From IMG/VR virus record IMGVR_UViG_3300037067_027684, positions 1-64,000 of that record: DNA of 64,000 nt. The stretch is one strand, 5' to 3'. Positions within the stretch are counted from its first letter, which is position 1, and every line of letters begins with the position of its first letter. Shown one piece after another: positions 301-17,819 of this stretch. The DNA comes from a virus (Duplodnaviria; Caudoviricetes). Both the position numbers and the translations under genes were made by a program. Below the pieces are notes generated by a model. That model worked only from the letters and a program-made list of their open reading frames with translations. It did no database searches and had not been told where the DNA came from.

Positions 301-374
301 GCGAATGCAGAAGGTGGGAACTTCGACTAGTCTCTAAAACTAGTGCTTAGAGGGTTCGATTCCCTCCATTCGCA
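301..374 (+). tRNA. amber suppressor tRNA, anticodon CTA (334-336)
   Basis: Cloverleaf: acceptor GCGAATG/CATTCGC, D stem GAAG/CTTC, anticodon stem (A)CTAGT/ACTAG(T) with loop CTCTAAA, T stem GAGGG/CCCTC with loop TTCGATT, discriminator A; CCA not encoded. Confidence 0.9.
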
Positions 375-387
375 TTTTGAGGTGTTT

Positions 388-876
388 ATGCCCAGCGAGA
401 CGTGGAGAATACGAAATCACGATAAGATGTGTGCTTATCGTAGAAAGTGGTATAGAAGTAATTCTAAATCTGTAAAGCGAAGATCTAAGGACAGAAGAGA
501 ATTTTTCTTAGAATGGCTATTGGAGATCAAATCGCATTCGAGATGTGAACTATGTCAAGAAGATGTTCAATGTTGTCTTGATTTACATCATGATCAGAAG
601 GATCAGAAGGTTGATGTTATTAGTAGAATTATTTATGATTCTTGTTCGTTAGGTAAGACCATAGATGAGTTTCTAAAATGCGCAATATTGTGTTCTAATT
701 GCCATCGTAAAATTCATAATAACATAGTCAATGTTAGATTACATAAAATAGAAAAGAAATTGATTGACTATACATTCAGATTGGTTTGTGATAATAGACG
801 TAAGAATAATAAATATGTGCCACCATTTCATGATGATATAGACAGGATCATTTTTACAGCAGTTTCAGGCTCCTGA
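388..876 (+). CDS. HNH endonuclease
   Basis: CELC..LDLHH..KCAILCSNCHRKIH; start moved to ATG 388 (GAGGTG RBS) so it does not overlap the tRNA. Confidence 0.8.
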   Translation: MPSETWRIRNHDKMCAYRRKWYRSNSKSVKRRSKDRREFFLEWLLEIKSHSRCELCQEDVQCCLDLHHDQKDQKVDVISRIIYDSCSLGKTIDEFLKCAILCSNCHRKIHNNIVNVRLHKIEKKLIDYTFRLVCDNRRKNNKYVPPFHDDIDRIIFTAVSGS

Positions 877-1168
877 ATATCTTGGAGTCAGCCTTGGGAT
901 GGACGGCTAAAGCAGTATGCTCGTTGTTGCGATCTGGCTCAATAAATGTTTTGAAGTTAATTTCTTTCTCCTTAAGATGATTCTCCCACTTAGCGAGGTC
1001 TTGTTCGTCATTGACTCCGAGTAGGACCATAGTCTTGTGATTATCGGCCCAATCGAGCACCTATGGATCAGGTATGCTGTGGCGGAGTAATTCCGCCACA
1101 GCATGACATGCCTGGACAGCTTGCTGTGATTGAGGCAAGTCTTTACGCACTAACACGTATAACTTCAT
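854..1168 (-). CDS. Pth2-like peptidyl-tRNA hydrolase with in-frame TAG at codon 36 (1061-1063)
   Basis: MKLYVLVRKDL..QAVQACHAV (Pth2 N-terminal motif) - TAG - VLDWADNHKTMVLLGV..FIEPD..TALAV..LKLL in one frame; AAGGA RBS; true stop TAA. Confidence 0.8.
1074..1104 (-). other. perfect 13-bp hairpin inside the Pth2-like CDS, ending 10 nt 5' of the amber codon
   Basis: ATGCTGTGGCGGA-5 nt-TCCGCCACAGCAT. Confidence 0.85.
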
Positions 1169-1472
1169 GTTTAAGTTCCTTATTGATTTTCTCTTCTAAA
1201 TCGACAAGTGCCTTACTGGCTAGTTTGACTACTTCTGGGTATGCTTTCGGGACATGGGCTTTAACTTTTTCGTGGCTTCCTTTGTGAATATGAAGTGCGA
1301 TTAACCATTTGGTTGCTTCTTTTTTCATGCCGATATATTTACTCCATTCCTCAACAGATGATGGGGAAATATATCCTATTTTAGTGTGACTAGCCTCTTC
1401 TTTGATTGAATGAATATTATTAGACAGTAAACGGATGTTGTTCCTAATTGCTTCGTGTACTTCGGGTTTCAT
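1143..1472 (-). CDS. hypothetical helical protein upstream of and overlapping the Pth2-like gene
   Basis: 109-aa ORF, AAGGAG RBS 6 nt upstream, TAA stop. Confidence 0.8.
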   Translation of the reverse strand: MKPEVHEAIRNNIRLLSNNIHSIKEEASHTKIGYISPSSVEEWSKYIGMKKEATKWLIALHIHKGSHEKVKAHVPKAYPEVVKLASKALVDLEEKINKELKHEVIRVSA

Positions 1473-1478
1473 GTTACT

Positions 1479-1526
1479 CTCCTTAACGGTGTTTAGGTTG
1501 GTAGGATCTTAGACCGTGTTAAGGAG
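1479..1526 (-). promoter_or_regulatory. RBS-sequestering hairpin (candidate translational attenuator)
   Basis: mRNA CUCCUUAAC(AC)GGU pairs with ACC-GUUAAGGAG, which contains the RBS of 1143..1472. Confidence 0.75.
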
Positions 1527-1566
1527 GATGCGGTGGAATCTAATAAAAGGGAGGAACCTAACGCAT
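1519..1566 (-). CDS. leader peptide MR*VPPFY*IPPHPP with two in-frame amber codons
   Basis: AGGAG 6 nt before ATG; ATG CGT TAG GTT CCT CCC TTT TAT TAG ATT CCA CCG CAT CCT CCT TAA. Confidence 0.7.
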
Positions 1567-4424: not shown

Positions 4425-4533
4425 AATCAGCCTTTCAAATACTTAATATCACACATACTTCATTAAGAAAGTATTTCTCTAATATTTAAGTATTTTGAAT
4501 ACGATGTATTTTAAGTCACCAGAGGAGACAACC

Positions 4534-5652
4534 ATGTACGGAAAAGGGAAAGTAATTGCTCTTTCAGAGAGAACACTAAAAGAATTTAATATCAATATTA
4601 CAACTTTGGTCACTGGTTCACACCATAAAGTTTATGTTCGTTGCGTGCGATGTGGTGAGGAATTTACTAGAGAATGGAGATACTTGCATCAACTTCACAA
4701 TTGTCCTACATATAAAACGCGAGAAGATGGAACATTACTTAAGTGGTGTAATCATTGTAAGCAGTTCATTACGACTACTATGTTTAACGTTAATCTTGCT
4801 AGATATGATAAATTATCTAGTTACTGTAAAAGTTGTTCAAATCAATGCGTTCATAATCAGAAACAAAATGAACGAAAACAAAATGAAAGGAAAACCAATT
4901 TTAATTCTTGGATTAAAAATTATCTGTGTACTAAAAAAAGTAGATGTAAGAAAGATAGAATACTCTGTGAATTAGACATAGAATCATTGACGAGAAAATG
5001 GAATCAACAGTGTGGTAGATGTTTCTATACTGGTATTAGTCTAGAATTTGCTACTAAGGGTCTTAGAGGCGCGCAACTTGATAGGATTGATCCAAATGGG
5101 GGATATATTCTTGATAATGTTGTTTGGGCTTCACGAGCAATAAATCAAGCTAAAAGTAATGCGACAGTTGGTGATTTCTTAAATTTTTGTTTAGAAGTAA
5201 ACCTAACAAATTTTCTAAATGTCAACGCTCGGCTTGAATGTAAATTGTGTCACCCAGACGCTAAAATTCCATATAGAAAGCGTCCAACGGATGCTGGATA
5301 TGATATAGTTGCTATTAATGGTGGGACCATATTGCCAAATAGGATGTTAAATATTCATACTGGTGTAATATTAACTTGCCCTTCTGGGTACTACATAACA
5401 ATCGAACCGCGATCAAGCCTTTGGATGAAGGGAATTTCGCCTTTCCATGGCATAATTGATGCGACTTATACTGGTGAATTAATGGTTTGTCTTATGAATT
5501 ATGGCTCAGAACCATATGTTATTGAAAAAGGCAATCGTATTGCTCAGTTGATTCTCCACAAGAATATACCGTTCGATATCGTAGAGGTTTCTAGTTTCAG
5601 TCCTGATTATAATGAACGCGGGACTGCTGGTTTTGGTGAATCTGGAGTTTAG
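4534..5652 (+). CDS. dut: Zn-finger/HNH-like endonuclease fused to trimeric-type dUTPase
   Basis: C-terminal dUTPase motifs AGYDI, PRSS, GIIDATYTGE, RIAQL, RGTAGFGESG; N-terminal CxxC pairs and RCFYTG..LDRID..GYILDNV..INQAK. Confidence 0.85.
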   Translation: MYGKGKVIALSERTLKEFNINITTLVTGSHHKVYVRCVRCGEEFTREWRYLHQLHNCPTYKTREDGTLLKWCNHCKQFITTTMFNVNLARYDKLSSYCKSCSNQCVHNQKQNERKQNERKTNFNSWIKNYLCTKKSRCKKDRILCELDIESLTRKWNQQCGRCFYTGISLEFATKGLRGAQLDRIDPNGGYILDNVVWASRAINQAKSNATVGDFLNFCLEVNLTNFLNVNARLECKLCHPDAKIPYRKRPTDAGYDIVAINGGTILPNRMLNIHTGVILTCPSGYYITIEPRSSLWMKGISPFHGIIDATYTGELMVCLMNYGSEPYVIEKGNRIAQLILHKNIPFDIVEVSSFSPDYNERGTAGFGESGV

Positions 5653-17133: not shown

Positions 17134-17819
17134 AAATACTTGTTGAAATCGGAACGCATGATATCGTGCGCTCCGTTATAATAATGAGCAATAATTGTAT
17201 TGTCGTGTTTGAGATATGAGATTTTATCGGTTAAAATGAAGTTGATGTGATTGTTATATAACATAATATTTAATATTACCTGATCTGCATGATGTACTTT
17301 AGAATTACCGCCAGTTTTATCGTAGAGTCGTAACCAATCATCGAGAAGAGAATATATCTTTGATGATAACGCAAAGACACCACAACAAGCTCCTGGGAAA
17401 TCTCCATTGATTTCTGTTTTGATTCCATAATCCTTTGGCCAGCTTCTCATTTTATTGATGTTGCCATTAAATGATAATCCATCTTTTTGCACCACAATGT
17501 CGTGAGTCAATAATTTTCGAATATCTCCAAATACTAAACAATCCGCGTCGATATACACAATCCATTCATAAGCATTGATGTCAATTAAATTATTGACATC
17601 AATGCGCAATCGTACTGGGTCAGATCCGTATTTTTCATCTAGGATGGTAAGCTTATATCCTTGTTTTAAACAACTCAATTTTAACATGTTTGCTAGTTGA
17701 TGATAATGAGCACCAATTGCTGCGGTGTAGACCAATATTGGTTTCTCTTGTGTAATGATTTTGGGTTTAAATGGATAAGGATTGGTTTTATTTAATTTGC
17801 GTCTGAATTTGTCGATCAT
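17130..17819 (-). CDS. GT-A glycosyltransferase (GT8-like)
   Basis: VYIDADC, GVF, DQVILN, IAHY. Confidence 0.75.
   Translation of the reverse strand: MIDKFRRKLNKTNPYPFKPKIITQEKPILVYTAAIGAHYHQLANMLKLSCLKQGYKLTILDEKYGSDPVRLRIDVNNLIDINAYEWIVYIDADCLVFGDIRKLLTHDIVVQKDGLSFNGNINKMRSWPKDYGIKTEINGDFPGACCGVFALSSKIYSLLDDWLRLYDKTGGNSKVHHADQVILNIMLYNNHINFILTDKISYLKHDNTIIAHYYNGAHDIMRSDFNKYF

What the first reader, a model, noticed from the sequence alone, without database searches (positions are those of the whole stretch)
854..1168. Pth2-like gene with a single in-frame amber preceded by a perfect 13-bp hairpin
Seen: the ORF track shows only the C-terminal 68 aa, but the frame extends through TAG (1061-1063) to an ATG with RBS and the Pth2 signature VRKDL..Q..HA. 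The stop falls between motif blocks (SIPDP*VLDW). A 13-bp GC-rich hairpin (1074-1104) ends 10 nt 5' of it. Inference: programmed readthrough with a 5' structural element, perhaps autoregulatory in the manner of the RF2 frameshift, or protection of a processed mRNA end.
Basis: partly seen in the sequence, partly recalled or inferred. Interest (0 to 1): 0.8.

Follow-up and report, generated by a model that had tools for sequence, protein, structure and literature searches.

The report
Amber-gated tRNA hydrolase in giant phage
A giant phage keeps a stop codon (TAG) inside a peptidyl-tRNA-hydrolase-like gene, most likely read by the phage's only tRNA, an amber suppressor 480 bases away; this gene-plus-suppressor pairing recurs in over a hundred uncultured phages and appears unpublished.

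Summary
On the minus strand, 854-1168 is one 104-codon frame with a single TAG at codon 36. A perfect 13-bp/5-nt-loop hairpin ends 10 nt before the TAG.

It is not a pseudogene. The same codon is TAG in about 24 relatives, from 99% down to 45% identity. Non-synonymous change is restrained on both sides of it. The read-through product is a full PTH2 domain (Pfam E 3e-13; AlphaFold pLDDT 97; TM 0.80-0.84 to solved PTH2 structures).

The genome's only tRNA has anticodon CUA and lies at 301-374. A suppressor tRNA sits beside the PTH2-like gene in 74 of 80 IMG/VR relatives and in cultured Bxz1-like mycobacteriophages.

These phages are not generally recoded. Across about 43,000 aligned codons in three genomes, the only internal in-frame TAG is in this gene. 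TAG still ends 16-19% of long ORFs. In-frame TAGs arose at 8 or more different codons of this gene.

The operon also starts with a TAG-containing leader mini-ORF.

The hairpin is real and shows compensatory changes. It is patchy, though: absent in half of the TAG-bearing relatives and present in some genes without TAG. It is therefore not the read-through signal.

Best reading: suppressor-dependent gating of a PTH2-like enzyme.

The parts
854..1168 (-). PTH2-like gene, 104 codons, with an in-frame TAG at codon 36 and a TAA terminator
   Evidence: Pfam PF01981 E 3e-13 over the full length. AlphaFold pLDDT 97. Foldseek top hits are all PTH2 structures, TM 0.80-0.84.
1061..1063 (-). Programmed amber codon (UAG), context GAU CCA UAG GUG
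   Evidence: The same codon is TAG in L013/L014 and in about 24 metagenome loci at 45-99% identity. It maps to the start of helix 35-44, after loop 32-34. Sense-codon homologues carry T/R/F/A/S/E here.
1074..1104 (-). 13-bp perfect hairpin with a 5-nt loop. The left arm is codons A-V-A-E; the right arm lies in a variable segment.
   Evidence: A stem of 9 bp or more recurs at the same place in 11 of 121 distinct family genes. There are 3 compensatory pairs, with 0 of 500 shuffles as good.
301..374 (+). Amber-suppressor tRNA, anticodon CUA; the only tRNA in the 246,684-bp genome
   Evidence: ARAGORN. Rfam tRNA 36.8 bits against a gathering score of 29. A suppressor tRNA is linked to the PTH2-like gene in 74 of 80 IMG/VR loci.
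1143..1472 (-). 109-aa ORF of unknown function, upstream of the PTH2-like gene and overlapping its start by 26 nt (translational coupling is likely)
   Evidence: Homologue in L013/L038. No Pfam or PHROG match. The gene at this position in 49 of 65 other loci forms one family, predicted as a helical hairpin at pLDDT 93 with no fold match.
1519..1566 (-). Leader mini-ORF M R * V P P F Y * I P P H P P stop, with two in-frame TAGs; SD AGGAG at 1577-1573
   Evidence: Read. Equivalent leaders occur in L013 and L014, in 23 of 80 IMG/VR loci (reverse-complement control 1 of 80) and in 20 of 50 metagenome loci (control 0).
1473..1530 (-). Possible pairing of the end of the leader (CCUCCUUAAC...) with the Shine-Dalgarno region (GUUAAGGAG) of the 109-aa ORF
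Evidence: Seen by eye; not folded here.
388..876 (+). HNH endonuclease gene between the tRNA and the 3' end of the PTH2-like gene
   Evidence: PHROG HNH families, E 7e-14. It probably explains why tRNA and gene are separated and convergent here, whereas most relatives have them adjacent.

Best explanation
The TAG at codon 36 is a maintained, programmed amber codon. It is decoded by the phage's own amber-suppressor tRNA(CUA), encoded 480 bp away, so full-length PTH2-like protein is made only when, and roughly as much as, that tRNA is active.

The gene belongs to a conserved phage cassette with four parts: a TAG-containing leader mini-ORF, a small helical protein, the PTH2-like gene, and a suppressor tRNA. 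In the window's clade the tRNA usually heads the cassette and the PTH2-like gene carries the TAG. In another clade the tRNA follows the gene by 4-50 nt and the TAG is usually absent.

These phages otherwise use the standard code. The cassette therefore looks like a self-contained circuit that ties a peptidyl-tRNA hydrolase to suppressor activity.

Shown here: family and fold of the product; conservation and recurrence of the TAG; linkage to the tRNA; absence of general recoding; covariation of the hairpin.

Inferred: that the tRNA reads this TAG, and that this gates expression.

Speculative: the direction of the loop. The enzyme may clear peptidyl-tRNAs produced when ribosomes linger at UAG and at Pro-stop sites. 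Alternatively it may restrain the suppressor itself, as a negative feedback analogous in logic to RF2.

The hairpin 10 nt upstream is a separately selected mRNA structure that may tune ribosome traffic or mRNA stability. It is not needed for TAG retention.
For: Family and fold of the product:
- The read-through product is a complete PTH2 domain.

Conservation of the TAG:
- It sits at the identical codon in L013 (65% id), L014 (59%) and about 24 metagenome loci down to 45% identity.
- Synonymous sites are saturated (pS 0.63-1.0) while pN is 0.18-0.37 on both sides.

The tRNA:
- The only tRNA in the 247-kb genome has anticodon CUA.
- In G001 and G002 it lies apart from the main tRNA clusters and 1.3-2.4 kb from this gene.
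- 74 of 80 IMG/VR loci carry a suppressor tRNA next to the gene: 71 CUA and 3 UCA, most of them 4-50 nt downstream.
- Cultured Bxz1-like phage Breeniome has the same pairing.

No general recoding:
- The only internal in-frame TAG in 21,393 + 7,297 + 14,047 aligned best-frame codons of three genomes is in this gene.
- Across 81 loci and 75,206 homology-supported codons, all 13 well-supported in-frame TAGs are in this gene.
- TAG ends 16 of 99 long ORFs in this genome and 156 of 803 in the related loci.

Recurrence of the TAG:
- It occurs at 8 or more alignment columns and is scattered on the tree. The sister genes L054 and L064 carry it at different codons.

Other points:
- Leader mini-ORFs with TAG are found upstream.
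- TAG contexts favour a 3' purine: G 29, A 4, T 3, C 0 of 36.
- TAG is under-used as this gene's own terminator: 9 of 116 against 156 of 803.
Against: - No expression or proteomic data exist. Decoding by this tRNA is inferred from linkage only.
- The window's tRNA is atypical (C8, modest Rfam score of 36.8 bits) and sits on the opposite strand, so its activity is unproven.
- The amino acid inserted is unknown. Acceptor stems and discriminators of the 74 suppressor tRNAs are heterogeneous.
- The canonical PTH2 'GK' loop is shortened in this family, so hydrolase activity is not assured.
- Many cultured-phage homologues have no suppressor tRNA within 2.5-3 kb: Aeh1, K64-1, Xoo-sp13, Vibrio D479.
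- Enrichment of TAG in this gene could partly reflect tolerance rather than selection, since the TAGs lie at variable surface positions.
- Four TAG-joined ORF pairs elsewhere in the genome could not be resolved.
Confidence: 0.78

Rival explanations
1. Hairpin-stimulated read-through by host components. The 5' hairpin makes the ribosome misread UAG with a near-cognate host tRNA, independently of the phage tRNA.
For: The hairpin is real and strong (z = -4.2). It ends 9-10 nt before the TAG in two registers and shows compensatory changes. It is enriched among genes with TAG in the loop: 7 of 31 against 4 of 90.
Against: Eight of 16 distinct TAG(36) sequences lack it, with z about 0. TAG-less genes L132, L145 and L165 have it. 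With UAG in the A site, the 3' arm would lie inside the ribosome (inference from footprint size). A dedicated suppressor tRNA is linked in nearly all loci.
Confidence: 0.07
2. General TAG reassignment (code 15). The phage reads every TAG as an amino acid, and this is simply one such codon.
For: A suppressor tRNA(CUA) is present. Distant PTH2-like homologues occur in TAG-recoded Lak phages.
Against: There is no other internal TAG in about 43,000 aligned codons of three genomes. TAG ends 16 of 99 long ORFs. Eight same-frame TAG junctions are plain stop-SD-ATG gene boundaries. ORF gain with TAG as sense is smaller than with TGA or TAA as sense. No release-factor domain is found in the genome.
Confidence: 0.04
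3. Nonsense pseudogene, or a split gene giving a 35-aa peptide plus a 68-aa protein restarted at the GTG that follows the TAG.
For: A GTG follows the TAG directly in the window, and standard-code gene callers report only a C-terminal piece (68 aa from that GTG; a 58-aa call, P0002).
Against: The TAG is retained over saturated synonymous divergence, with constraint on both sides. The codon after the TAG is GTA, GTT, GTC or ATA in relatives, so it is not a start codon there, and no SD precedes it. The model is one compact domain in which the break falls between helix 1 and helix 2.
Confidence: 0.04
4. Pyrrolysine or another special residue is inserted at UAG. ARAGORN labels the tRNA 'Pyl'.
For: The anticodon is CUA, and the anticodon stem can be drawn with 6 bp.
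Against: No PylS is found in the genome. The ARAGORN label follows from the anticodon alone. The D-loop and variable region are not Pyl-like. The position is variable in homologues.
Confidence: 0.01

Closest known systems
TAG-recoded (code 15) phages with suppressor tRNAs, such as Lak, crAss-like and jumbo phages (bioRxiv 10.1101/2021.08.26.457843; PMC9523058; PMC13037316)
   Same: A phage-encoded tRNA(CUA) reads in-frame TAG in a host that uses the standard code. Recoding is proposed there to time gene expression.
   Different: Here only one conserved gene, plus its leader, carries TAG. TAG remains a common terminator and no RF2 gene is present. The target is a translation-quality enzyme next to the tRNA, not late structural or lysis genes. 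None of the searched papers mentions a peptidyl-tRNA hydrolase link.
RF2 (prfB) autoregulatory +1 frameshift at an in-frame UGA (from general knowledge)
   Same: An in-frame stop codon sits early in a gene for a translation factor. The recoding efficiency reports the activity of the decoding or termination machinery, giving a feedback loop.
   Different: The mechanism here is suppression by a dedicated tRNA, not frameshifting. The quantity sensed would be suppressor-versus-RF1 activity. Whether the product feeds back on its own recoding is unknown.
PTH2 peptidyl-tRNA hydrolases (Pfam PF01981; PDB 2zv3, 3erj, 1q7s, 1wn2, 1xty)
   Same: The match is full-length by HMM and by fold. The motifs VR.DL and Q..HA are conserved.
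   Different: This is a phage subfamily of about 100 aa with a shortened 'GK' loop. Activity and substrate are untested. It is genetically tied to a suppressor tRNA.
Suppressor tRNAs of standard-code jumbo phages with unknown targets (XacN1, PMC5852040; Atu_ph07, PMC6102473)
   Same: Large phages with suppressor tRNAs and a PTH gene but no general recoding. The XacN1 authors searched for targets of tRNA(CUA) and found none.
   Different: This case supplies a concrete, conserved target, and a cassette linking the two genes that those papers list separately.
Bxz1-like mycobacteriophages: 'peptidyl tRNA hydrolase' gp159 followed by tRNA-other(cta)
   Same: The order gene-then-tRNA(CUA) is the same, and a mini-ORF ATG TTT TAG lies upstream of gp158.
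   Different: The Bxz1-type gene has no in-frame TAG and is 33% identical. The cassette sits inside a large tRNA cluster.
Classical leaky-stop read-through (Q-beta A1, MuLV gag-pol; from general knowledge)
   Same: A conserved in-frame stop, with a functional protein requiring read-through.
   Different: Those systems use host near-cognate tRNAs and 3' context or structure, and make a minor extended isoform. Here the stop interrupts a single domain and a dedicated tRNA is supplied.

Membership tests
PTH2 (PF01981) peptidyl-tRNA hydrolase | Pfam HMM score above the gathering threshold over the full domain | tested here: met
   50.4 bits against a cut-off of 23, residues 1-102 and profile positions 1-113 of 115. 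Achieved only when the TAG is read through.
PTH2 (PF01981) peptidyl-tRNA hydrolase | PTH2 alpha/beta fold | tested here: met
   AlphaFold pLDDT 97. Foldseek top 13 hits are all PTH2 chains, TM 0.75-0.84.
PTH2 (PF01981) peptidyl-tRNA hydrolase | Catalytic residues: Lys of the G-K loop and the C-terminal Asp/Thr. These residue roles are recalled from the S. solfataricus Pth2 work, not checked here. | tested here: inconclusive
   In the alignment to 2zv3, the 'GMGKGK' loop is replaced by a shorter 's-p-s..q-q'. E77, D79 and T85 are invariant where canonical 'DAG..T' lies.
PTH2 (PF01981) peptidyl-tRNA hydrolase | Hydrolysis of peptidyl-tRNA | not testable with these tools
   Needs an enzyme assay or complementation of an E. 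coli pth(ts) strain.
Code-15 (TAG-recoded) phage | Suppressor tRNA(CUA) encoded | tested here: met
Code-15 (TAG-recoded) phage | In-frame TAG in many genes, with low coding density under code 11 | tested here: not met
   Only this gene carries one, in about 43,000 aligned codons. ORF totals gain less from TAG as sense than from the TGA or TAA controls.
Code-15 (TAG-recoded) phage | TAG abandoned as a terminator | tested here: not met
   TAG ends 16 of 99 long ORFs. TAGGAG..ATG junctions are common.
Programmed stop-codon read-through (recoding) | The stop codon is conserved at the same position in diverged orthologues | tested here: met
Programmed stop-codon read-through (recoding) | Purifying selection on the sequence downstream of the stop | tested here: met
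   C-side pN is 0.27-0.37 with pS 0.83-0.99. The domain is complete only with both halves.
Programmed stop-codon read-through (recoding) | The read-through protein is detected | not testable with these tools
   Needs proteomics or a reporter.
RF2-type autoregulatory recoding | The gene product controls the efficiency of its own recoding event | not testable with these tools
   Only the circuit topology is seen (tRNA, then TAG in a translation-related gene).
tRNA-Pyl / pyrrolysine system | PylS synthetase present | tested here: not met
   No TIGR02367 match in the genome.

The most novel reading that the evidence does not exclude
The cassette (suppressor tRNA, TAG leader, small helical protein, TAG-interrupted PTH2-like enzyme) is a previously undescribed, self-contained sensor and homeostat of stop-codon suppression in standard-code phages.

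In this reading the tRNA's main clients are its own regulators. The PTH2-like enzyme acts on the suppressor tRNA or on the peptidyl-tRNAs that suppression and Pro-stop stalling generate.

Such a controlled suppressor would be the stepping stone from which full TAG recoding (code 15) evolves.
Probability: 0.3. Interest if true: 0.9.

Novelty: new variant of a known kind. Interest (0 to 1): 0.8.

Why it matters
Suppressor tRNAs turn up in many large phages that do not use an alternative code, and their targets have been an open question. The XacN1 study looked for targets and found none.

This case supplies a conserved target: a translation-quality enzyme encoded next to the tRNA. It also shows that in-frame TAGs arise again and again in this one gene.

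It suggests how a phage can carry a potentially dangerous suppressor under control. It offers a plausible first step towards full stop-codon reassignment. It also provides a natural, compact amber-gated switch.

The question is testable, because related cassettes exist in cultured Bxz1-like phages of M. smegmatis.

Tried and rejected
- 'The hairpin is lineage-specific.' I first concluded this from L013/L014 and thought of a one-step template-switch origin. The metagenome relatives overturned it: the hairpin recurs in two registers with compensatory changes.
- General recoding: rejected.
- The 21 same-frame TAG-joined ORF pairs in the genome. Pfam and PHROG searches showed no domain spanning any TAG. 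Eight pairs are plain stop-SD-start junctions. At least six (74767, 183084, 193065, 90444, 29851 and probably 102712) look like antisense shadows of opposite-strand genes; I judged this by comparing their coordinates with the conserved genes, not with a dedicated test. A few others (20136, 38449, 131553, 190618) were not examined further. Four stay unresolved: 126232, 233861, 82174, 217519.
- Inferring the inserted amino acid from aligned homologues. The positions are variable, except K-rich column 88 in L070, so this was uninformative. The tRNA identity elements are heterogeneous.
- Function of the 109-aa / middle ORF. No Pfam or PHROG hit and no significant fold match. The window's ORF matches the family profile only at E 0.11.
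- Megablast of the first 6 kb against cultured phages found nothing.
- Literature searches for any PTH2 / suppressor-tRNA link found none.

Full report
**The observation**

On the minus strand, an ATG at 1168 is preceded by AAGGAA. It opens a 104-codon frame that runs to the TAA at 856-854 and is interrupted once, by the TAG at 1063-1061.

Positions 1104-1074 form a perfect 13-bp stem with a 5-nt loop, ending 10 nt before the TAG. A 66-nt window folds at -28.7 kcal/mol, z = -4.2. In the whole genome only five perfect hairpins reach 13 bp. Perfect stems of 10 bp or more give 26 stem/loop entries (about 17 distinct hairpins), against 2-6 entries in shuffles.

Read through the TAG, the product matches Pfam PTH2 end to end (50.4 bits, cut-off 23). 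It also matches two PHROG families. AlphaFold gives one compact domain (pLDDT 97, pTM 0.88), with codon 36 at the start of helix 2. The best PDB matches are all PTH2 enzymes at TM 0.80-0.84.

ARAGORN finds one tRNA in the window and one in the whole 246,684-bp virus record. Its anticodon is CUA and it lies at 301-374 on the plus strand, 480 bp from the gene's stop codon. It scores 36.8 bits on Rfam tRNA against a gathering score of 29. An HNH endonuclease gene (388-876) lies between the two. The genome has no release-factor domain and no PylS.

**Not a pseudogene**

Two IMG/VR relatives, L013 (65% identity, 234-kb contig) and L014 (59%, 129-kb contig), have TAG at exactly the same codon. It sits inside an invariant GATCCATAGGT block.

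Synonymous sites among the three are saturated (pS 0.63-1.0). Non-synonymous differences are 0.18-0.23 on the N-terminal side and 0.27-0.37 on the C-terminal side.

A scan of metagenome contigs added 61 loci. Of these, 38 carry an in-frame TAG in the gene. About 24 have it at query position 36, from 99% down to 45% identity. The others have it at positions 32-33, 38 or 13.

**Not general recoding**

TAG ends 16 of the 99 longest ORFs of this genome. Treating TAG as sense lengthens ORFs less than treating TGA or TAA as sense.

I fetched the whole contigs of L013 and L014 and compared all ORFs with TAG written as X. In the best-frame alignments (21,393, 7,297 and 14,047 columns), the only internal in-frame TAG, and the only TAG aligned to a TAG, is in this gene.

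Across 81 loci, with 75,206 homology-supported interior codons in 559 ORFs, all 13 well-supported in-frame TAGs lie in the PTH2-like gene.

Of 21 same-frame TAG-joined ORF pairs in the genome, eight are ordinary stop-SD-ATG junctions. At least six more look like antisense shadows of opposite-strand genes, judged by comparing coordinates. A few were not examined further and four remain unresolved.

**A conserved cassette**

With the family alignment as query, IMG/VR gave 170 relatives. In the best 80, a suppressor tRNA lies within the 10-kb locus in 74 cases: 71 CUA and 3 UCA. It is usually 4-50 nt downstream of the gene on the same strand, and often the only tRNA there.

In G001 and G002 the ordinary tRNAs cluster elsewhere, while the tRNA(CUA) sits alone 1.3-2.4 kb from this gene. 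In the window's own clade the tRNA typically lies 0.8-1.7 kb upstream on the same strand, at the head of the operon.

In cultured Bxz1-like phage Breeniome, the annotated 'peptidyl tRNA hydrolase' gp159 is followed by 'tRNA-other(cta)'. More distant homologues lack a nearby suppressor tRNA: Aeh1, K64-1, Xoo-sp13, Vibrio D479 and LR756511. Lak-A1 has a tRNA(UUA) 700 nt upstream.

**Recurrent TAGs**

In the 81-gene alignment the TAGs fall in 8 columns, most of them in the loop between helix 1 and the conserved Trp. On the tree they are scattered, needing 10 parsimony changes, of which at least 3 are forced by well-supported branches. The window, L038 and L039 form one clade sharing the codon. 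The sister genes L054 and L064 carry TAG at different codons.

The residues that homologues carry at these positions vary. The suppressor tRNAs differ in acceptor stem and discriminator: A 33, U 19, G 17, C 5. The inserted amino acid therefore cannot be named.

Among 36 distinct TAG contexts, the next base is G in 29, A in 4, T in 3 and C in none. The preceding codon is Pro in 18. From memory, a 3' purine favours amber suppression and Asp/Pro-stop contexts terminate poorly in E. coli; I did not verify either point in a paper.

TAG is under-used as this gene's own terminator: 9 of 116, against 156 of 803 long ORFs in the same loci.

**The leader**

At 1566-1519 on the minus strand, behind an AGGAG, the sequence reads M R TAG V P P F Y TAG I P P H P P TAA. 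Its end can pair with the Shine-Dalgarno region of the 109-aa ORF (the pairing was judged by eye).

L013 reads M R TAG ... H P P TAA, and L014 reads M L TAG V E H P P TAA. A strict pattern (ATG, 0-4 codons, TAG..., Pro-Pro-stop) is found 340-510 nt upstream of the gene in 23 of 80 IMG/VR loci, against 1 of 80 on the reverse complement. It is found in 20 of 50 metagenome loci against 0 in the control.

The gene between the leader and the PTH2-like gene is one family in 49 of 65 loci. It is a predicted helical hairpin with no known relatives. The window's 109-aa ORF is its positional equivalent, but similar only at E 0.11.

**The hairpin**

L013 and L014 show no structure here (z +0.5 and +0.15). 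Taken alone, that suggested a lineage-specific oddity. The larger set changed this.

A perfect stem of 9 bp or more occurs at the same place in 11 of 121 distinct genes, with its left arm formed by the codons for A-V-A-E. There are two registers, and the stems end 9-10 nt before the TAG.

The right arm changes its amino acids to follow synonymous changes in the left arm. Val GUG/GUU/GUA pairs with His CAC, Asn AAC or Tyr UAC. Ala GCG/GCC pairs with Arg CGC or Gly GGC.

On eight sequences of one register, 99% of cells pair, three pairs show changes on both sides, and no shuffle out of 500 reaches the observed covariation. Slid controls pair at 31-57%. These rows were chosen because they fold, so the percentage paired is biased. 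The compensatory pattern, and the recurrence of long perfect stems at one site, are not affected by that choice.

However, 8 of 16 distinct TAG(36) sequences lack the stem, and three genes without any TAG have it (L132, L145, L165). The hairpin is therefore a selected mRNA element of this gene in one subclade. It is enriched among TAG-bearing genes (7 of 31 against 4 of 90; phylogeny not corrected) but is neither necessary nor specific for the TAG.

With UAG in the A site, its 3' arm should lie within the ribosome. An effect on the decoding step itself therefore seems unlikely (inference). Spacing of following ribosomes, or protection of an upstream mRNA 3' end after termination at the TAG, are possible roles. 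Neither was tested.

**Mechanism proposed**

Full-length PTH2-like protein requires the phage suppressor. Together with the TAG leader, the operon is doubly gated by suppressor activity.

Why a hydrolase? One possibility is that it recycles peptidyl-tRNAs that drop off when ribosomes wait at UAG or at Pro-stop sites. The other is that it limits the suppressor. The data do not decide between these.

The canonical GK loop of PTH2 is shortened in this family, so even the enzymatic activity needs testing.

**Literature**

Papers on phage recoding and on jumbo-phage tRNAs describe suppressor tRNAs and, separately, PTH genes. None that I could search links the two or reports a TAG inside a PTH gene. 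The XacN1 paper explicitly failed to find targets for its tRNA(CUA).

**Verdict**

Programmed read-through is strongly supported, the decoder is most likely the linked tRNA, and the hairpin is real but not the read-through signal. I class this as a new variant of a known kind: tRNA-mediated stop-codon recoding in phages, confined here to a self-regulating cassette.

The scan had already noted this stretch (e1-5651225) and the leader (e1-5651226). I tested the leader claim independently.

Noticed in passing
L014:2273-2349 (contig IMGVR_UViG_3300037264_002389): ARAGORN calls a tRNA with a four-base anticodon (gaaa), sitting between the leader/ORF and the PTH2-like gene of this relative, next to a methyltransferase-like ORF. 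It may be a frameshift-suppressor-type tRNA or a tRNA with an 8-nt loop.
   Followed up: no
window 4495-5652 (+): One ORF combines an endonuclease VII/HNH-like region (residues about 50-239) with a complete dUTPase domain (256-384). It may be a homing endonuclease fused to, or inserted ahead of, dUTPase.
   Followed up: no
genome positions 197417, 114394, 76785, 59182 (window), 5650 (window), 164276: Many gene junctions have the form TAGGAG...ATG, with the next start about 12 nt after the TAG and in the same frame. A suppressor tRNA would therefore fuse neighbouring proteins at these junctions unless TAG read-through is kept low.
   Followed up: partly
window 17572-17605; genome 113529-113557, 131826-131859, 156483-156516, 241376-241406: Other perfect hairpins of 12-14 bp occur in this genome, unrelated in sequence to the one in the PTH2-like gene. 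Their positions relative to genes were not examined.
   Followed up: no
L122 (Prevotella phage Lak-A1, MK250018.1) 2233-2305: A tRNA with anticodon UUA (ochre-type suppressor) lies about 700 nt upstream of the Lak PTH2-like homologue. The hydrolase-suppressor linkage may therefore extend to other stop codons. Three IMG/VR loci pair the gene with tRNA(UCA).
   Followed up: partly
L120 (Mycobacterium phage Breeniome) 2097-2135: The mini-ORF ATG TTT TAG GTA... has a GGGAGG Shine-Dalgarno and runs over the SD and start of gp158, just upstream of the annotated peptidyl tRNA hydrolase and tRNA(cta). It is a possible amber leader in a cultured phage.
   Followed up: partly
whole record G000: IMG/VR classes the 246,684-bp record as a provirus (91% complete), while the protein collection lists the same gene on a 371,794-bp contig. 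Either the phage is larger than the record or it is flanked by host DNA.
   Followed up: no
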